Below, piece after piece: positions 4,238 to 11,864 of a stretch of DNA of 64,000 bases. A program made the position numbers and the translations under genes. Source of the DNA: Candidatus Niyogibacteria bacterium. GTDB lineage: Bacteria > Patescibacteriota > Minisyncoccia > HO2-45-28. The stretch is from assembly GCA_016432485.1 (NCBI GenBank), contig CP066691.1, positions 587,538 through 651,537 on the forward strand. The letters run 5' to 3'. The notes beneath the pieces were generated by a model, which ran no database searches, had not been told where the DNA came from, and saw nothing but the letters and a program-made list of their open reading frames with translations. Numbering within the stretch: position 1 is the stretch's first letter; the number at the start of each line of letters is the position of its first letter.

Positions 4238-4374
4238 ATTTCGTCTCCGCTTTTAAGAAGATCTCTGATATTTATTTATATCAGAAAACGAAATTTTAGC
4301 AAACGCTTTTTAAAAAATGTTTGTGAGAAATTATCTGGTATTTCTCTTTCCAAAATTTGAAATGTCTAACTTGG

Positions 4375-4441
4375 TCGGGATGCTGGGAATCGAACCCAGT
4401 CTTTGCCTCCTTCGGAGCCACGGACTTCCGCAGGAAGTCCG
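4375..4441 (-). pseudogene. tRNA-Pro(CGG) 3'-half remnant (32-nt exact copy) plus a 9-bp hairpin
   Basis: tcgggatgctgggaatcgaacccagtctttgc is identical to 4472-4503 of the intact tRNA. No D-arm or 5' acceptor strand could be found. The hairpin cggacttcc-gca-ggaagtccg lies at 4421-4441. Confidence 0.55.
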
Positions 4442-4471
4442 GAAATTTTTATTGTTGTTTTACGAATCCTG

Positions 4472-4542
4472 TCGGGATGCTGGGAATCGAACCCAGTCTT
4501 TGCGCACCCGAAGCGCACGTACTGCCGGTATACTACATCCCG
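4472..4542 (-). tRNA. tRNA-Pro(CGG)
   Basis: 71-nt cloverleaf; anticodon stem TGCGC/GCGCA with loop TTCGGGT. Confidence 0.8.
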
Positions 4543-4561: not shown

Positions 4562-6022
4562 TTATTTCACATAATACCTTTGTTTAATTTTACCGACCTC
4601 CTCTTCTTCCAGGCCGATTTTTTTATGTTTGGCTGACTCGCGTAATTTCCCTAATTCTTTCTCCGACACGGCGCAGAGTTTTTTGATTCGGCCTTCGAGG
4701 TAATCTTTGCTGTTTAATTTCGGGTCGTCAAGCACTTCTTCAAGCAAAACATCAAGTATCGCGCCTATTTTAGGACCGGGCTCAAATGCGCAAATCCGCA
4801 TAATGTCGTCGCCTTTGATTTTGAGCATTTTAACCGAGATCGGGTCGCGCTGGACCTTGTCAACCATAAACTGGAAGTGGCGCAGTTTGTAGGGCTCGGC
4901 TTTGGGCACGCCCGACCCCACGCGGTCGCAAATCCGGACTTTAATTAAATCATTCATATCTTCAGCGCCAACTCTCGCTACAAGCCGCCTGACCGAGGAC
5001 TCCGTAACCTCGCCGACATTGTAATAAAAAAGGTGATAGCGCACCAGTTTGGTTACTTTATCAATAAATTTTTTGGGAAAGCGCAGGCGCGACAAAATCG
5101 CGGCAGTCATTTTCGCGCCCACAATTTCATGATTATAAAAAGTTGAATCCTTGCCGTCGCCATGCTTGGTGCGCGGCTTGCCGACATCGTGAAGGAGCGC
5201 TGACATTCTGATATCAAGCGGCCATTTTTCTTTAACCGCTCGGTCAAGCGAGCGCAAATTATGCTCCCAAACGGTGTAAATGTGATGTTTATTTTGAGTA
5301 ACATTCCAGCCCTCTTCAAGTTCGGGCATAACGAATTTCAAAATGCCGAGTTCCCGCATAGCTTCCAAACCTCGCGAGGCATTATCCGATTCAATCGTTT
5401 TTATGAGTTCGTCGCGAATCCGTTCTTTGGATATGAATTCCAGAAGCCCGCGCTTTTCGCGAAGCGCTTCCAGCGTTTTATCTTCAATTGAAAAACCGAG
5501 TTCGGCTTCAAAACGCAGAGCCCGCATAATGCGCAAAGCGTCTTCTCCAAATCTTTCTTCCGGATTGCCGACCGCGCGAATAATTTTATTTTTCAAATCT
5601 TTCTCTCCGCCGAAATGGTCTATCAGTTCTTGGTCTTTAGTTTTTAGTTTCAATGCCAGCGCGTTTATAGTAAAATCCCTGCGCTTCAAATCGTCTTCAA
5701 GTTTGTCGGTGAACTTAACCGCGTCGGGATGGCGTTTGTCGGTGTACTTTTCTTCAATACGATACGGAGTTATTTCAACTACCGCAAGCGTTGGGTCGTC
5801 AGAGCCGGTCTTGACCCCGACTGTTCCGAAATCGTTTTCATAAAAACTATCGGCAGGGAAAATTTTTTGAATTTCTTCCGGCTTGGCGTTTGTGGTTATG
5901 TCCCAATCCTTTGGCGCTCGTCCCAACAGCAAATCTCTTACGCATCCGCCGACCAAATACGCCTCGTATCCGGCGCCCGTAAGCGCCTCGTAAACCTCTT
6001 TAATTTCTTTCGGGATTTTCAT
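4562..6022 (-). CDS. cca: CCA-adding tRNA nucleotidyltransferase with HD domain
   Basis: N-terminal GGCVRDLLLG pol-beta nucleotidyltransferase motif; HD motif LLHDVGKP. Confidence 0.85.
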   Translation of the reverse strand: MKIPKEIKEVYEALTGAGYEAYLVGGCVRDLLLGRAPKDWDITTNAKPEEIQKIFPADSFYENDFGTVGVKTGSDDPTLAVVEITPYRIEEKYTDKRHPDAVKFTDKLEDDLKRRDFTINALALKLKTKDQELIDHFGGEKDLKNKIIRAVGNPEERFGEDALRIMRALRFEAELGFSIEDKTLEALREKRGLLEFISKERIRDELIKTIESDNASRGLEAMRELGILKFVMPELEEGWNVTQNKHHIYTVWEHNLRSLDRAVKEKWPLDIRMSALLHDVGKPRTKHGDGKDSTFYNHEIVGAKMTAAILSRLRFPKKFIDKVTKLVRYHLFYYNVGEVTESSVRRLVARVGAEDMNDLIKVRICDRVGSGVPKAEPYKLRHFQFMVDKVQRDPISVKMLKIKGDDIMRICAFEPGPKIGAILDVLLEEVLDDPKLNSKDYLEGRIKKLCAVSEKELGKLRESAKHKKIGLEEEEVGKIKQRYYVK

Positions 6023-6053: not shown

Positions 6054-6815
6054 CTATTTGATTTTTCTTGCGGCAAAAATAATCGTGGCCGGGATTTTTT
6101 TAGCAAGCATCAGCCATTCGTTGTAATACTTCGTTGAACGAACGGCCGGCTTTGGTTCAAGCATTTTTTCTATAAAAAATTCGTTTTTTGCAAGCGCGTT
6201 GATTATACGTCCCACGGTTCTATGATAAATATAAAACGGAGCTTCTTTTTTTCCGCCGGACATAGTGAAATGAACTTTTCTCTCGGTAATATAATCCAAA
6301 GATTTGTCGCTGCGCTTTTCGCCATCCGAACGCGTCCCCGACCAGACAGGATGATTCAGGCTGAAAATGAATTTTCCGTCCTTTTTTAAAAATCGGCGAA
6401 CCTCGGCGAATAAACGGTTTAAGTCCTTGATATACTGAAACGCGTAATTGGAAACGACTAAATCAAAAGTATTTTTGGGAAAGTCTTTTGTATTTATCTT
6501 ATTTAAATCCTTTTTCAAAAAATTTGCCTTCAGACGCGCTTTTTTCATTCTGTTTTCAGCCAATTCAAGCTGTTTTTCTGAAAAGTCCGCCGCTGTAACT
6601 TTAGCGCCTTGTTTTGCCAGCCACCAAACATCCGGCCCGGAACCGCATCCCAAAACCAAGACCCTCTTGTTTCTTAACGGCGGGAGTAACTTCGCGTCTT
6701 TTTCCCAAGGGCCATAGGGACCCCAAATCAAACCGCGCTTAAAAAGCGGCTCCCATTCTTCAAAAAATGTTTTCGCCGCGGCATCCCAGCTTTTTTCTAA
6801 AATAATTTTAGCCAC
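6054..6815 (-). CDS. class I SAM-dependent methyltransferase
   Basis: VLVLGCGSGPD motif I; downstream D/E and acidic motif. Confidence 0.75.
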   Translation of the reverse strand: MAKIILEKSWDAAAKTFFEEWEPLFKRGLIWGPYGPWEKDAKLLPPLRNKRVLVLGCGSGPDVWWLAKQGAKVTAADFSEKQLELAENRMKKARLKANFLKKDLNKINTKDFPKNTFDLVVSNYAFQYIKDLNRLFAEVRRFLKKDGKFIFSLNHPVWSGTRSDGEKRSDKSLDYITERKVHFTMSGGKKEAPFYIYHRTVGRIINALAKNEFFIEKMLEPKPAVRSTKYYNEWLMLAKKIPATIIFAARKIK

Positions 6816-6852
6816 TGATTAATTATACTCTTTTTATGCCATTCGTTTTTCT

Positions 6853-6881
6853 TGACAAAATTATTATTTGGGTGTATAATA
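6853..6881 (+). promoter_or_regulatory. consensus sigma70-type promoter (TTGACA-17 bp-TATAAT)
   Basis: ttgacaaaattattatttgggtgtataat matches both consensus hexamers exactly with a 17-bp spacer. Confidence 0.55.
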
Positions 6882-6906
6882 GAAGATGGTAGAATAAACA
6901 AACGAA

Positions 6907-6944
6907 GAAAAAAGCCGTCGCGCGGAGCGCGGCGGCTTTTTTCT
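6907..6944 (+). terminator. GC hairpin + T-run about 30 nt downstream of the consensus promoter (candidate short RNA or leader)
   Basis: gccgtcgcgcggagcgcggcggc followed by ttttttc. There is no upstream plus-strand gene to terminate. Confidence 0.4.
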
Positions 6945-6983
6945 TTGGTTTCCATCGTTTTTATGGGACAATGGCTGTATTAC

Positions 6984-7056
6984 GCGCCCGTAGCTCAACG
7001 GATAGAGCGCCTGGCTTCGGACCAGGAGGTTGTGGGTTCGAATCCTGCCGGGCGCG
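6984..7056 (+). tRNA. tRNA-Arg(TCG)
   Basis: Acceptor GCGCCCG/CGGGCGC, D-arm TAGCTCAACGGATAGAGC, anticodon loop CTTCGGA, T-loop TTCGAAT. Confidence 0.85.
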
Positions 7057-7307
7057 CCGAAGCGACAGCGAGGCGCGAACGGAGCGAACAAACTGCTTTG
7101 TTCGCGTCAGGATGAGAAGGATTTTCTGATGTCTCTTGACCAGAAAATCCAGGCCCGAAGGGGAATCCTGCCGGGCGCGCCGAAGCGACAGCGAGGCGCG
7201 AACGGAGCGAACAAACTGCTTTGTTCGCGTCAGGATGAGAAGGATTTTCTGATGTTTCTTGACCAGAAAATCCAGGCCCGAAGGGGAATCCTGCCGGGCG
7301 CGCCGAA
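7040..7307. repeat. 123-bp tandem repeat, 2.2 copies, each starting with the last 19 nt of tRNA-Arg(TCG)
   Basis: gaatcctgccgggcgcgcc occurs at 7040, 7163 and 7286. The units differ by a single mismatch. Each unit carries the hairpin gcgaacaaa-ctgc-tttgttcgc. Confidence 0.85.
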
Positions 7308-7391
7308 TCTAGATAAACTACGCGTGTATTGAAAAAATACTGCTTGTGTGTTTATATCGGTTTAGATGGAAATAAGCCAGGAGGGACGACG

Positions 7392-8237
7392 ATGGAGTTG
7401 TTTCTTGACACCTGTGAAATTGAAGAGATAAGAAGGGCGGTCGCGACAGGACATATTTCGGGAGTCACCACGAATCCAACGCTTGCCAAAAAAGCGAACA
7501 GACCGGATTACAAAACGCTCATTCAGGAAATTCGCGATGTTTTTGCCGCAAATAATCTGCCGGCGGCTATAAGCGCCCAGGTAACCGAGAATCAGCCTCC
7601 TGAAATAATGTATAAAGAAGGCATGGATTTTTGGATGATGGATGCTCGAAGAATAGTTGTCCAGGTTCCCGCAACCAGAATCGGCCATAAAGCTATGGAA
7701 AGATTAAAACGGCCCGCGGATCTTGAAGTCAGAACTAACGTCACCCTAATTTTTGATCCGTGGCAGGCGCGCCAAGCAATGCTGGCGAGAGCGGATTTTA
7801 TAAGTCTTTTTCTGGGGAGCAAAGAAAAAGAGGCCATAGATCAATACGTGGCGGATAGAATGTTACAAAAATACGGCAGCACAAACCTCGATTGGCAGGT
7901 TTTTAACAAAAAAATTGCAGAAGAAAATGAAAGATTTTATGAAGAAGAGATCGTGAGAACAGGAACGCCGGAGGATTTTATCTGCAAAACACTCGCTTTG
8001 ATAACACAGATAAGAGACGTGGGCCGTTTCGCGACAAAAATTGTGGCGGCCAGCATAAGAGAAATGAGACACGTAGAAATCGCGAAGTGCCATGGGGCGG
8101 ATATAGCAGCGGTGCCTCCTGAAATTTTTTGGGAATTATACGCGGAAGGATTTAAACTTCTTGATAAAGACGACCTCGGTCTTACTCTTAAAGGAGTTGA
8201 AAGATTTTTGGAAGACAGGAAATTTTTAATCTCGTAA
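7392..8237 (+). CDS. transaldolase / fructose-6-phosphate aldolase family protein
   Basis: MELFLDTCEIEEIRRA...GVTTNPTL N-terminal signature. GGAGGG Shine-Dalgarno 7 nt upstream. The ORF track starts 63 nt earlier. Confidence 0.7.
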   Translation: MELFLDTCEIEEIRRAVATGHISGVTTNPTLAKKANRPDYKTLIQEIRDVFAANNLPAAISAQVTENQPPEIMYKEGMDFWMMDARRIVVQVPATRIGHKAMERLKRPADLEVRTNVTLIFDPWQARQAMLARADFISLFLGSKEKEAIDQYVADRMLQKYGSTNLDWQVFNKKIAEENERFYEEEIVRTGTPEDFICKTLALITQIRDVGRFATKIVAASIREMRHVEIAKCHGADIAAVPPEIFWELYAEGFKLLDKDDLGLTLKGVERFLEDRKFLIS

Positions 8238-8275: not shown

Positions 8276-9187
8276 TTATTTTCTCTTGCGCGCGTGAAAT
8301 GTTTTATGGATTTCGCTAAGCTGGCGGTTAGTGATGTGAGTATAAATTTGCGTGGTTGAAATGTTGGAATGCCCCAGCATTATCTGGACCGAACGCAAAT
8401 CCGCGCCGTTTGTCAGAAGATCGGTGGCAAAACAATGGCGCAAAGTGTGCGGAGTAACTTTTTTGGAAATGCCGGATTTGAGCGCGTGATATTTTATAAT
8501 TCTTTCTACCGAACGCGGAGTGAGGCGGGAATAGCTTATAGCTTTTAGCTTGTGGCTTTTAGTTCTTGGGAGGCGAACAAAAAGGGCCTCTTCAATGTCG
8601 GGCCGTTTATTCAGCCAATTTTCAACGGCTGACTTCGCGTCATCGGACAAAAAAACCAGGCGCACTTTTTCTCCCTTGCCTCTTACGCTGAACTCCCCCT
8701 TTTTCAAATTGACAGAATCGCGATTAAGCGAGCAAAGTTCGGACACACGAAGTCCCGTTGAAAATAAAAGCTCCAGAATCGCGCGGTCCCGCAAGCCCTT
8801 GGCGCCGTCTCCGGACGGAGAGACGATTAAACGCTCCAATTCGTCTTCCGATATTAAATCAATTTCGCGCTCCCCTGTTTTAGCCAATTCTATTTTCTCG
8901 GCAGCTAAACTCGCGATTTCGCGCCTGGCCAGATATTTTAAAAAACCGCGTAGCGCGATTAAATAATAATTTTGGGTCTTTTTCTTTAGATTTTTGCGAT
9001 TGAGCCACAGCCGGAAATCGCGTACAGCGTCATCAGTAATGTCGGCGGGTGCTGCGATTTTGGCAAAATCAAAAAAGGCGGCAAGATACCTGTCGTAATT
9101 ATCAAGGGTCTTCAGGCCTCGGCCTTTTTCAATTTCCAGATATTCCAAGTACTGCCTTAAAAAATCATTTTTATCCGAATGTCGCAC
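8276..9187 (-). CDS. tyrosine site-specific recombinase, XerC/XerD family
   Basis: HTLRHCFATDLL...GHSNISTTQIYTH catalytic box with R-H-R-Y residues. Confidence 0.85.
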   Translation of the reverse strand: MRHSDKNDFLRQYLEYLEIEKGRGLKTLDNYDRYLAAFFDFAKIAAPADITDDAVRDFRLWLNRKNLKKKTQNYYLIALRGFLKYLARREIASLAAEKIELAKTGEREIDLISEDELERLIVSPSGDGAKGLRDRAILELLFSTGLRVSELCSLNRDSVNLKKGEFSVRGKGEKVRLVFLSDDAKSAVENWLNKRPDIEEALFVRLPRTKSHKLKAISYSRLTPRSVERIIKYHALKSGISKKVTPHTLRHCFATDLLTNGADLRSVQIMLGHSNISTTQIYTHITNRQLSEIHKTFHARKRK

Positions 9188-10171: not shown

Positions 10172-10317
10172 TACCGTTTCCTTTCTAGCCGTTCGGCTGT
10201 TAGGATTTGTTGCCCGTACTCTTTCGCTATTTTATACGATTAAGTATTTTTTGTCAACCCCATGTAATGGTTCAATAGCTTATTTTCTTTTTCAAAATTA
10301 AAAGCTATATTTTAAAC

Positions 10318-11046: not shown

Positions 11047-11661
11047 TTATGTGGTGGGCAATTCTTTTTTTATGGCGTGTTTTATATCTAAAAGAGAGGT
11101 ATAAAAAACTCTTTTTGTATCTACGGCTATAAGATTGCGAAGTTTTGTCGAAAATCTAGAAATCGTTATCCCAGCTTTTGAGTCTTTGCCGGAATAAGAA
11201 AAAATATAAACCCTTTCAACGCCTTTTTCCAAAGCCTTAATTATTAAGTATTCAAAATCGCCATCGCCAGTAAACAGCATCAGCTCAACCCCAGGAGCAG
11301 ATTTTTCAATTGCGTCTATTGACAACTCAACGTCGCAATTCGACTTTTTCTTGTACCCCATATCAACAATAAATACGTTTTCTTCTTTACAGCGCACGCA
11401 GCGTTTAGATATCTTTTTGTCCTTATTTTTATAAGCAAAAATCGGCTTACTTTTTACTGTGTACCCATCATTTTTTAAGGACTCAAATTCGTTGGCGGTT
11501 TCAACATCCCCATTGTCAATTCCTGTGTAAAAAGAAACTTCCGAACACGACCTCTTGTTCATTAAATAGTCGGCAAGCCTTCTCCAATTAATTGAAAAAC
11601 CAAGCATTTGCTCAGCGGAATTTTCTGTATTTAATACATCTATAAAAGCGTATCGCTTCAT
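11047..11661 (-). CDS. NYN/LabA-like (PIN-fold) domain protein with Zn-ribbon insert
   Basis: YAFIDVLN ... LFTGDGDFEYLI core typical of NYN domains; CVRCKEEN insert. Confidence 0.55.
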   Translation of the reverse strand: MKRYAFIDVLNTENSAEQMLGFSINWRRLADYLMNKRSCSEVSFYTGIDNGDVETANEFESLKNDGYTVKSKPIFAYKNKDKKISKRCVRCKEENVFIVDMGYKKKSNCDVELSIDAIEKSAPGVELMLFTGDGDFEYLIIKALEKGVERVYIFSYSGKDSKAGITISRFSTKLRNLIAVDTKRVFYTSLLDIKHAIKKELPTT

Positions 11662-11864
11662 TCCAAAAATTTATCATATTTTTTAACACCTTTCAATTTT
11701 TTTTATTTAAAACACAAATTTTATATCAGGGCGTTGCAAAGCTATTGAACCATTACGCGCCTATTGACAGATTGGATTTCGGGTGCTACAATTGAAGAGT
11801 AATAATGGCTGGGGCGGGATTGGCCCGTCCTAGACATGCACCTTAAATCCCCCGACGAGGAGGA

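What the first reader, a model, noticed from the sequence alone, without database searches (positions are those of the whole stretch)
7040..7307. 123-bp tandem repeat that re-uses the 3' end of tRNA-Arg(TCG), 1 kb from a XerD-like recombinase
The last 19 nt of tRNA-Arg are repeated three times with an exact 123-bp period. The two full units are 122/123 identical, and each carries a 9-bp-stem hairpin. Tandem attachment-site remnants of this kind are left by serial integration of small tRNA-targeting elements, and a tyrosine recombinase lies just downstream. Alternatively the unit is a duplicated small-RNA gene riding on the tRNA transcript.
Basis: seen in the sequence. Interest (0 to 1): 0.65.

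Follow-up and report, generated by a model that had tools for sequence, protein, structure and literature searches.

The report
tRNA-linked repeat array behind tRNA-Arg
The 123-bp tandem repeat after tRNA-Arg is real: it is a two-copy array of a folded "tRNA-linked repeat", the kind of element known but unexplained in E. coli since 1978, and it belongs to a large, apparently undescribed family that sits behind tRNA and tmRNA genes in Patescibacteria.

Summary
tRNA-Arg(TCG) is followed by 2.2 copies of a 123-bp unit that differ by one SNP. A 22-nt core occurs three times; its first 17 nt are the tRNA from T-loop position 57 to the discriminator. Independent short-read assemblies break exactly where such a repeat predicts.

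The att-scar reading is not supported. The neighbouring recombinase is a conserved, syntenic Xer gene. There is no distal att site, and the module is absent from phage contigs.

Each unit has a fixed build:
- an antisense copy of the tRNA 3' part (the "anti-core"), split by a conserved AA-CUGC-UU hairpin;
- two further hairpins;
- a direct copy of the tRNA 3' end.

The same build follows about 9% of tRNAs in related genomes. It also follows tRNAs of 38 anticodon types, and tmRNA, in metagenome contigs. Anti-core and core always match the host tRNA (87% of positions paired against 69% in shuffles, 0 of 500 shuffles as high).

E. coli tRNA-linked repeats (rtT) share the defining 3'-end identity, the tandem arrangement, and the anti-core closing helix.

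The best reading is a TLR-type trailer element that mimics the tRNA's acceptor/T helix, amplified by unequal recombination. Its function, and whether the constraint acts on RNA or DNA, remain unresolved.

The parts
6984..7058 (+). tRNA-Arg(TCG). The discriminator is G7056; CCA is not encoded (the gene continues CCG).
   Evidence: ARAGORN; Rfam tRNA 68.5 bits
7040..7061 (+). Core copy 1: T-loop G57 through the discriminator, plus CCGAA. It lies inside and overlaps the tRNA 3' end.
7040..7162 (+). Repeat unit 1 (123 bp)
   Evidence: TRF; the repeat finder D1
7072..7082 (+). Anti-core 1 of unit 1 (GGCGCGAACGG). It is complementary to the acceptor 3' strand CCGGGCGCGCC (9 of 11). Unit 2 equivalent: 7195-7205.
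   Evidence: sequence; fixed-register test 11/14 for this unit; family test
7084..7105 (+). Conserved hairpin GCGAACAAA-CUGC-UUUGUUCGC of unit 1. Unit 2 equivalent: 7207-7228.
   Evidence: 100% of hairpin cells paired; 4 of 9 pairs with a change on both sides across the family
7108..7120 (+). Anti-core 2 of unit 1 (CAGGAU, antisense of AUCCUG in the T-loop/T-stem 3' strand), followed by GAGAAGG. Unit 2 equivalent: 7231-7243.
   Evidence: the same GGAU-GAGAAG string occurs in E. coli TLRs
7119..7150 (+). Long A/U-rich hairpin (GGAUUUUCUG ... CAGAAAAUCC) with inner stem GUC/GAC. It contains the only SNP between units (C7133 / U7256, turning C-G into U.G). Unit 2 equivalent: 7242-7273.
   Evidence: folds
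7154..7162 (+). Mini-hairpin CCC-GAA-GGG directly abutting the next core. Unit 2 equivalent: 7277-7285.
   Evidence: short hairpins in the same position with different stem sequences in L210, L238, L262 and L271
7163..7285 (+). Repeat unit 2 (123 bp, 122/123 identical to unit 1). It begins with core copy 2 (7163-7184).
7286..7307 (+). Terminal core copy 3, followed by unique sequence leading to the aldolase gene

Best explanation
WHAT IT IS (shown). A two-unit tandem array of a tRNA-linked repeat (TLR)-type element. Each ~101-nt spacer contains, in order:
- an antisense copy of the host tRNA's 3' part, covering the acceptor 3' strand and then the T-stem/T-loop, and split by a conserved AA-CUGC-UU hairpin;
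- two more hairpins;
- a direct copy of the tRNA from T-loop position 57 to its 3' end.
Anti-core and core can close the unit into a three-way junction that copies the tRNA's acceptor-stem/T-stem stack. The unit belongs to a large family found behind tRNA and tmRNA genes of Patescibacteria. It has the same design as E. coli TLRs (rtT).

HOW THE ARRAY AROSE (inferred). One unit flanked by two 22-nt cores was duplicated by unequal recombination or replication slippage between the cores. This happened recently, or the copies are being homogenised, because only one SNP separates them.

HOW IT WORKS (inferred, not shown). The array is transcribed as the 3' trailer of tRNA-Arg. Each unit ends in a mimic of the tRNA's terminal helix. 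The enzymes that mature tRNA ends would therefore cut at the unit boundaries. This would give the tRNA a defined 3' processing site and release ~120-nt structured RNAs whose own role is unknown. The candidate enzymes are RNase P at the 5' side, the 3' endo/exonucleases and the CCA-adding enzyme.
For: Class definition met.
- The element is downstream of the tRNA on the same strand, ends in 19-22 nt identical to the tRNA 3' end, and is tandem. This matches the TLR hallmark quoted in PMC8144298.

Family.
- 26 of 280 tRNAs (9%) in 80 related loci have a copy of their own 3' end within 600 nt downstream.
- 127 CUGC hairpins were found in 120 metagenome loci. 86 of them lie downstream of a tRNA on the same strand, 0 on the opposite strand, across 38 anticodon types. 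47 of the 86 have a core copy, and several are tandem arrays.
- Elements also follow tmRNA genes and a tRNA interrupted by a group I intron.

Structure.
- On a fixed register set by tRNA numbering, 87.2% of cells pair, against 69.1% in shuffles (0 of 500 as high) and 30-48% when the 3' partner is slid. 165 cells show a change on both sides against 68 in shuffles.
- 33 of 36 elements recover the closing helix in an unconstrained MFE fold, with mean z -5.6.
- For the window unit the family fold is -54.5 kcal/mol against an MFE of -54.7. The unit's z-score is -4.95.

E. coli comparison.
- E. coli TLRs contain the same kind of antisense segment (19 of 22 nt) and a 10-bp closing helix.

Co-transcription and processing.
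- No terminator is predicted between the tRNA and the array.
- In E. coli, the TLRs in rRNA operons are transcribed by read-through and processed, and the repeat is proposed as the nuclease signal (PMC8144298).
- In 40 of 65 tRNA/copy pairs the identity ends 1-3 nt after the discriminator, i.e. at the mature 3' end.

Constraint.
- The tRNA-Pro(CGG) element in this window is 95-98% identical to that of L017 (76% CCA-enzyme protein identity). The flanks do not align, and the block ends exactly at the end of the core copy.
- The window SNP and one window/L017 difference each turn a C-G pair into U.G on the tRNA strand.
Against: - No expression data exist, so transcription, processing and any product are all inferred.
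- Mismatches in the anti-core:core helix and in the hairpin show no excess of G.U over A.C (22 vs 20; 9 vs 11; 12 vs 6). The complementarity could therefore reflect copying at the DNA level rather than selection on an RNA fold.
- The Arg unit is not conserved: nothing similar follows the orthologous tRNA-Arg (96% identical) in L043, L045, L053 or L068.
- Orthologous tRNA-Arg genes in genomes 69-75% identical to each other (CCA-enzyme protein) carry different element types and copy numbers. Two genomes 93% identical (CCA-enzyme protein) differ in half of their Pro element. Such turnover fits a selfish or neutral element at least as well as a functional RNA.
- Many family members have a terminator-like hairpin between the tRNA and the element.
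- The window unit's own MFE uses an alternative 15-bp hairpin.
Confidence: 0.5

Rival explanations
1. A selfish, non-autonomous miniature element that targets the 3' end of tRNA-like genes. The anti-core acts as a guide, or is copied from the target at insertion. The core copy is a target duplication. An enzyme encoded elsewhere moves the element.
For: - Near-identical interiors occur behind different tRNAs: L047 Arg and Lys are about 98% identical inside, and L057 Pro, L059 Arg and L074 Pro share modules.
- The hairpin sequence is conserved behind 38 tRNA types and tmRNA.
- The identity block has sharp ends (position 57/58 to the CCA position).
- Turnover between related genomes is rapid.
- There is no G.U bias.
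- In L021 the anti-core matches the diverged core copy better than the resident tRNA.
- There is an element without a tRNA in L079, and split or replaced tRNA genes in L088 and L017.
Against: - No transposase, reverse transcriptase or integrase is linked to the elements.
- Group II introns are reported absent from Patescibacteria (PMC13011429).
- The module is absent from phage contigs.
- A fixed mobile sequence cannot by itself explain ends that match each host tRNA on both the sense and antisense sides.
- No empty/filled site pair was found.
Confidence: 0.25
2. A neutral by-product of local rearrangement. Template switching at the tRNA/terminator palindrome created an inverted and then a direct partial copy of the tRNA 3' region, and slippage later duplicated it. 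It has no function.
For: - The window unit is collinear with the antisense tRNA-Arg, in the order acceptor 3' strand, T-arm, then variable/anticodon arm (16 of 21 for the last segment).
- In L021, L059, L193 and L199 the anti-core extends a palindrome that includes the tRNA's own 3' end.
- There is no G.U bias.
- The Arg unit is lineage-specific.
Against: - Independent accidents would not repeatedly produce the same AA-CUGC-UU hairpin at the same junction, the same A / GU flanks, or shared interior domains in hundreds of loci.
- The tRNA-Pro element is as conserved as its tRNA between genomes whose flanks do not align.
Confidence: 0.12
3. One reading: tandem attachment-site scars from serial integration of small elements, catalysed by the neighbouring XerD-like recombinase.
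For: - Direct repeats of a tRNA 3' segment that start in the T-loop are what tRNA-integrating elements leave.
- The 19-nt core is found in 51 viral contigs, often near a contig end.
- A tyrosine recombinase gene lies 1 kb away.
Against: - The recombinase is a conserved syntenic Xer gene.
- The units are 101 bp without cargo and 122/123 identical.
- There is no distal core copy.
- No symmetric T-stem half-site lies upstream of the core copies.
- Recombinases are not enriched near elements: 2 of 120 loci.
Confidence: 0.03
4. The repeat encodes a repetitive peptide. The ORF 7030-7332 stays open because 123 = 41 codons.
For: One + frame is open across the whole array. E. coli annotates a small ORF (tpr) inside its tyrT TLR.
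Against: - The ORF has a TTG start inside the tRNA.
- It has no Pfam hit.
- The only SNP is non-synonymous (Ser to Phe).
- Family members differ in length and frame.
- On my rough estimate, an open frame in a 41-codon unit is expected by chance in about 1 frame in 7.
Confidence: 0.02

Closest known systems
E. coli tRNA-linked repeats (TLRs; the rtT / RttR units of the tyrT-tyrV operon, and rrA/rrB/rrF behind 5S rRNA)
   Same: - They lie immediately downstream of a stable-RNA gene, on the same strand.
- The last 18-19 nt are identical to the 3' end of that RNA.
- There are 1-5 tandem units per locus (PMC8144298).
- Tested here: the tyrT TLRs also contain an antisense copy of the tRNA T-arm region (19 of 22 nt) that closes the unit with a 10-bp helix. 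They even share the GGAU-GAGAAG and CCCGAAGGG strings with the window unit.
- The layout 'stable RNA, terminator, TLR' with read-through transcription is described for rrnB (abstract).
   Different: - They are a different sequence family. The Rfam RtT model scores 133-137 bits on the E. coli units but finds nothing in the window or L047.
- The Patescibacteria family has the conserved AA-CUGC-UU hairpin splitting the anti-core. I saw no hairpin with this loop in the E. coli units.
- The unit is 123 bp here and 178 bp in E. coli.
- The host phylum differs.
attL/attR repeats of tRNA-integrating genomic islands and prophages (T-loop sublocation; recalled from Williams 2002, not read here)
   Same: A direct repeat of the tRNA segment from the T-loop to the 3' end. 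The same 19-mer is present in many viral contigs.
   Different: There is no integrase or cargo between the repeats and no symmetric half-site next to the core copy. The recombinase nearby is a conserved Xer gene, and the units are internally structured and share modules across tRNA types.
tRNA minihelix / tRNA-like structures that tRNA-processing enzymes accept (from general knowledge, not tested here)
   Same: The closing helix reproduces the acceptor stem stacked on the T stem of the host tRNA, with a single hairpin where the D and anticodon arms would leave.
   Different: The T-loop is replaced by a multi-hairpin insert. The tRNA covariance model does not recognise the units. No processing data exist.
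3' external transcribed spacer sRNAs (for example 3'ETS-leuZ in E. coli)
   Same: A functional RNA carried in a tRNA trailer and released by tRNA processing (mentioned in PMC8144298).
   Different: Those RNAs carry no copy of the tRNA 3' end, no anti-core and no tandem units.

Membership tests
tRNA-linked repeats (TLR) as defined for E. coli | Located immediately downstream of a tRNA/rRNA gene, in the same orientation | tested here: met
   The array starts inside tRNA-Arg and is on the same strand. Across the family, 86 hairpins are on the same strand as the tRNA and 0 on the opposite strand.
tRNA-linked repeats (TLR) as defined for E. coli | 18-19 bp at the unit's 3' end identical to the 3' end of the upstream tRNA/rRNA | tested here: met
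   A 22-nt core occurs three times; 17-19 nt of it are the tRNA 3' end.
tRNA-linked repeats (TLR) as defined for E. coli | One to five units per locus, in tandem | tested here: met
   Two full units plus a terminal core. Relatives have 1-3 units.
tRNA-linked repeats (TLR) as defined for E. coli | Part of the tRNA/rRNA transcript and processed from it | not testable with these tools
   Only indirect evidence: no terminator is predicted between the tRNA and the array.
Rfam RtT RNA (RF00391) | Match to the covariance model at or above its gathering score | tested here: not met
   No hit in the window even at E<=10, or in L047 at E<=0.05. The E. coli positive control scores 133-137 bits.
att sites of a tyrosine-recombinase integrative element | Integrase and cargo lie between the direct repeats, and the integrase is element-specific | tested here: not met
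   The spacers are 101 bp. The recombinase lies outside the array and is a syntenic Xer orthologue in 16 related loci.
att sites of a tyrosine-recombinase integrative element | A distal repeat bounding a larger island | tested here: not met
   No further core copy in the 64-kb window with up to 3 mismatches.
MITE-type transposable element | Family-wide fixed terminal inverted repeats and a short target duplication | tested here: not met
   The inverted (anti-core) and direct (core) ends differ from locus to locus and match each host tRNA. The duplicated segment is 17-22 nt.
tRNA / tRNA pseudogene | Recognised by tRNA models | tested here: not met
   ARAGORN and the Rfam tRNA model call only 6984-7058.

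The most novel reading that the evidence does not exclude
The elements are a programmable system aimed at tRNA-like 3' ends. It is shared in principle by Patescibacteria and E. coli TLRs. A 14-19-nt guide, split by a protein- or ribozyme-binding CUGC hairpin, recognises positions 54-72 of a tRNA or tmRNA. It either directs copying or insertion of the element behind that gene (a new kind of guided mobile element), or builds a substrate mimic that controls maturation of the upstream stable RNA. Either way, this would explain what TLRs are after almost 50 years.
Probability: 0.25. Interest if true: 0.85.

Novelty: new variant of a known kind. Interest (0 to 1): 0.62.

Why it matters
TLRs have been catalogued in E. 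coli since 1978. According to PMC8144298, the ones in tRNA operons have no known function.

This locus shows that the same design is abundant in a distant, genome-reduced phylum: a copy of the tRNA 3' end, an internal antisense copy, and tandem amplification. There it occurs behind most tRNA types and tmRNA, with a conserved hairpin.

That turns a single-species curiosity into a comparative problem with hundreds of natural variants. The host-matched anti-core/core pair can be tested directly, for example by mutating one side and assaying RNase P, 3'-end processing, CCA addition or mobility.

It also matters for annotation. These units break short-read assemblies, mimic att sites, and can be mistaken for island boundaries.

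Tried and rejected
- Distal att site or island: no further core copy in the window. Rejected.
- Known RNA family: Rfam at gathering thresholds on the window and 20 loci, and in sensitive mode on the repeat and on L047, found only tRNA, tmRNA, one group I intron and one unrelated LOOT hit.
- Phage origin: all 41 IMG/VR hits to the module pattern lack both the hairpin and a tRNA. The 51 hits to the core 19-mer are uninformative, because it is a generic tRNA 3' end.
- Synteny via the aldolase: its next homologue is only 39% identical, so the CCA-adding enzyme was used as the anchor instead.
- blastn of the Arg unit against 80 related loci found no hit.
- MAFFT alignment of the window-type subfamily failed in the variable middle. 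It was replaced by per-sequence folding and a gap-free spliced alignment.
- A first spliced alignment used a register optimised per sequence. It was discarded as biased.
- G.U versus A.C counts, used to decide between RNA-level and DNA-level constraint, were inconclusive.
- Hammerhead, C/D-box, H/ACA-pocket, T-loop-motif and bridge-RNA resemblances were considered from the sequence and dropped. Key conserved positions or geometry do not fit. In particular, the anti-core follows the antisense of non-palindromic T-loops, and the target strand has no unpaired nucleotides at the junction.
- Retro-origin (CCA on the copy but not on the gene): 9 cases against about 4 in the reverse direction, and most pairs read N-CA in both copies. 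This is suggestive at most.
- Coding ORF: rejected.
- The paper on group I introns in Patescibacteria tRNAs (PMC13011429) does not cover these elements.

Full report

tRNA-Arg(TCG) lies at 6984-7058 on the + strand (ARAGORN; Rfam tRNA 68.5 bits). Tandem Repeats Finder reports 7040-7307 with period 123, 2.2 copies, 99% matches and no indels.

The 22-nt core GAATCCTGCCGGGCGCGCCGAA occurs at 7040, 7163 and 7286. It occurs nowhere else in the window, even with 3 mismatches, and none of 100 shuffles gives a match. The core starts at T-loop G57 and runs through the discriminator (7056) plus CCGAA.

The two full units differ only at 7133 (C) versus 7256 (T). Each has the hairpin GCGAACAAA-CTGC-TTTGTTCGC.

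The window comes from a Candidatus Niyogibacteria MAG (Patescibacteria/CPR) with an 837-kb contig.

Short-read Logan contigs that carry the flanking genes come from more than ten runs of two projects. They end at 7069, 7132 and 7278. These are 30 nt into the repeat, one base before the SNP, and 30 nt before the exit, which is where a k=31 graph must branch if at least two tandem units exist. The repeat is therefore real. Only its exact copy number is open.

2. THE SURROUNDINGS DO NOT SUPPORT AN INTEGRATION SCAR

The neighbouring genes are a CCA-adding enzyme (4562-6022, minus strand), a SAM methyltransferase (6054-6815, minus), a transaldolase/FSA-type aldolase (7392-8237, plus) and a tyrosine recombinase (8276-9187, minus).

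The recombinase is Xer-type. It passes the NCBIfam XerA cutoff and scores just below the XerC/XerD equivalog cutoffs. It has 55-79% identical orthologues near the CCA-enzyme gene in 16 related loci, and the aldolase-Xer pair itself is conserved in L017 and L043.

There is no distal core copy. The units are 101-bp spacers with no cargo.

3. A SECOND CASE IN THE SAME WINDOW, AND MANY IN RELATIVES

tRNA-Pro(CGG) (4471-4542, minus strand) is followed 97 nt downstream by a 33-nt copy of its variable loop, T arm and acceptor 3' strand.

I fetched 80 related Patescibacteria loci through the CCA-adding enzyme. In these, 26 of 280 tRNAs that have enough downstream sequence carry a copy of their own 3' 16 nt within 600 nt. 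By type this is Pro(CGG) 10 of 59 and Arg(TCG) 6 of 54. Only two or three of the 26 are explained by a neighbouring tRNA gene.

There are tandem arrays as well: three units of 126 nt behind tRNA-Arg in L078, and two units behind tRNA-Gly in L053.

4. THE UNITS SHARE ONE ARCHITECTURE

Reading from the tRNA, each element has the following parts:
- an optional terminator-like hairpin;
- anti-core 1, the complement of the acceptor 3' strand;
- an unpaired A;
- a 9-bp hairpin with the loop context AA-CUGC-UU;
- GU;
- anti-core 2, the antisense of the T-stem 3' strand and T-loop, usually ending in GAA;
- one or two further hairpins or a longer domain;
- the core copy.

In 1.1 Mb of related loci, 17 CTGC-loop hairpins have stems of at least 8 bp. 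Sixteen have the AACTGCTT context, and 12 lie 24-305 nt behind a tRNA on the same strand.

Results:
- 127 hairpins, of which 103 have perfect stems;
- 86 lie within 400 nt (mostly 4-70 nt) downstream of a same-strand tRNA, none on the opposite strand, across 38 anticodon types;
- 47 of the 86 have a core copy;
- several are tandem arrays.

Some of the apparent 'solo' hairpins follow tmRNA genes (L227, L299, L259) or a tRNA interrupted by a group I intron (L242).

5. ANTI-CORE AND CORE MATCH THE HOST tRNA

Spacers align better to the antisense of their own tRNA than to non-cognate tRNAs or to shuffles (Wilcoxon p about 3e-4). For tRNAs whose T-loops are not palindromic, the anti-core follows the antisense strand, so it is a true antisense copy.

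I built a gap-free alignment in a register fixed by tRNA numbering: anti-core 1, hairpin, anti-core 2, then tRNA positions 58-71. The pair-count test gave:
- 87.2% of cells paired, against 69.1% in shuffles (0 of 500 as high) and 30-48% when the 3' partner is slid by 1-3 columns;
- 165 cells with a change on both sides, against 68 in shuffles;
- a covariation score of 0.483, against 0.173 in shuffles.

Folded on their own, 33 of 36 elements give the closing helix, the CUGC hairpin and the inner hairpins as the MFE structure, with mean z -5.6.

The window unit scores 11 of 14 in the fixed register. Its MFE uses an alternative 15-bp hairpin, but the family fold is only 0.2 kcal/mol higher, with ensemble probability about 0.37. 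The unit is also collinear with the antisense tRNA-Arg as far as the anticodon loop.

6. COMPARISON WITH WHAT IS KNOWN

PMC8144298 defines E. coli tRNA-linked repeats as follows:
- 22 units at ten loci in tRNA or rRNA operons, with one to five per locus;
- the last 18-19 bp of each are identical to the 3' end of the upstream tRNA or rRNA;
- first described in 1978;
- no known function for those in tRNA operons;
- those behind 5S rRNA are transcribed by read-through of a first terminator and processed, and the repeat is proposed as the nuclease signal.

The window array meets every sequence-level criterion.

I then examined the E. coli tyrT locus directly. Each 178-nt unit contains GGGGAAGGATGAGAAGCTTCGA, which matches the antisense of tRNA-Tyr at 19 of 22 positions. 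The unit folds with a 10-bp closing helix onto its core. The strings GGAT-GAGAAG and CCCGAAGGG are shared with the window unit. The GAGAAG variant of the antisense T-loop also recurs in L223, L226 and L277.

The families are not homologous by covariance model. Rfam RtT scores 133-137 bits on the four E. coli units, but finds nothing in the window or in L047. No other Rfam family covers the elements. I found no paper in the held library that describes them in Patescibacteria.

7. WHAT IT MOST LIKELY IS AND DOES

Shown: the array is a TLR-type element of a large family, and its design copies the acceptor/T-stem stack of the host tRNA.

Inferred: the array arose by unequal recombination or slippage between the 22-nt cores, given that one SNP separates the copies.

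Inferred: the array is part of the tRNA-Arg transcript, because no terminator is predicted before the aldolase gene. The terminal-helix mimic would then recruit the tRNA end-maturation enzymes to the unit boundaries.

Several observations support some constraint:
- The identity block ends at the mature 3' end in most pairs.
- The tRNA-Pro element is as conserved as its tRNA between the window and L017, while both flanks do not align.
- Two of the few substitutions seen turn C-G into U.G on the tRNA strand.

8. WHAT ARGUES AGAINST A SIMPLE FUNCTIONAL-RNA STORY

- There is no G.U excess over A.C in the closing helix or the hairpin.
- The Arg unit is absent behind orthologous tRNA-Arg genes.
- Related genomes carry different element types and copy numbers at orthologous tRNAs, and two genomes 93% identical (CCA-enzyme protein) differ in half of one element.
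- Interiors are shared between different tRNAs within and between genomes.
- Core copies can diverge from the resident tRNA (L021, L057).
- Split or replaced tRNA genes occur nearby (L088, L017).

These points keep a selfish, tRNA-3'-end-targeting mini-element as a serious rival (0.25) and a neutral rearrangement product as a weaker one (0.12). The att-scar, coding-ORF and assembly-artefact readings are disfavoured.

9. VERDICT

Its main interpretation (att scars plus Xer) is not supported; its alternative (an RNA unit riding on the tRNA transcript) fits the known TLR class.

The value lies less in this one array than in what it points to. There is an abundant Patescibacteria family with host-matched anti-core and core and a conserved hairpin, and I found no description of it in the sources searched. 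It shares its design with the long-unexplained E. coli TLRs.

Novelty: new variant of a known kind. Interest: 0.62.

Noticed in passing
window 4374-4542 (minus strand): tRNA-Pro(CGG) has its own tRNA-linked repeat. A 33-nt copy of its variable loop, T arm and acceptor 3' strand lies 97 nt downstream. The 65-nt spacer has an 8-bp hairpin (GGACTTCC-TGC-GGAAGTCC) and a CUCC-GAA-GGAG mini-hairpin. The copy ends in ACCA whereas the gene reads ACA. The whole block is 95-98% identical in L017, while both flanks do not align.
   Followed up: yes
window 1-64000: There are 21 tRNA genes in 64 kb, scattered singly or in small clusters. Only 6 encode CCA; most read N-C-A or N-C after the acceptor stem.
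   Followed up: partly
window 6852-6950: A perfect sigma-70 consensus (TTGACA, 17 nt, TATAAT; 12 of 12) at 6852-6880 points towards tRNA-Arg. It is followed by a 24-nt-arm GC-rich hairpin with A and T tracts (6900-6950) that looks like a bidirectional terminator. The real promoter of the tRNA is therefore unclear.
   Followed up: no
window 10264-10281 and 11739-11756: A perfect 18-nt inverted repeat (GTAATGGTTCAATAGCTT / AAGCTATTGAACCATTAC) brackets a 1.46-kb segment holding a 198-aa hypothetical gene and a NYN-domain gene. These two genes and the two hypothetical genes next to the Xer gene have no homologue in the 80 related loci. This may be a small strain-specific insertion or an invertible segment.
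   Followed up: no
L088 11488-12020: An older tRNA-Ala(CGC) appears to be split. Its first 18 nt are followed by a CUGC hairpin and about 380 nt, then a complete, different tRNA-Ala(CGC), and then the last 39 nt of the old gene. This looks like a replacement-type insertion.
   Followed up: partly
L017 about 11490-11557: A degenerate copy of the 5' half of tRNA-Pro(CGG), up to the anticodon loop, lies just upstream of the intact gene that carries the downstream TLR.
   Followed up: no
L227 6246-6900; L299 5949-6371; L259 1-318: tmRNA genes are followed within 26-51 nt by the same CUGC-hairpin element, with two units in L227. The family is therefore linked to tRNA-like 3' ends in general, not to tRNAs alone.
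   Followed up: partly
L078 9501-9900: The three-unit array behind tRNA-Arg(TCG) contains a run of N at a unit boundary in the public record, so the assembler had trouble there and the copy number is uncertain.
   Followed up: no
window 7392-8237: The aldolase (TAL/FSA family) is unusually divergent and long at 281 aa. The next homologue among 5.8 billion proteins is only 39% identical, and the L017/L043 orthologues are 37% identical, although the adjacent Xer is 79% identical.
   Followed up: no
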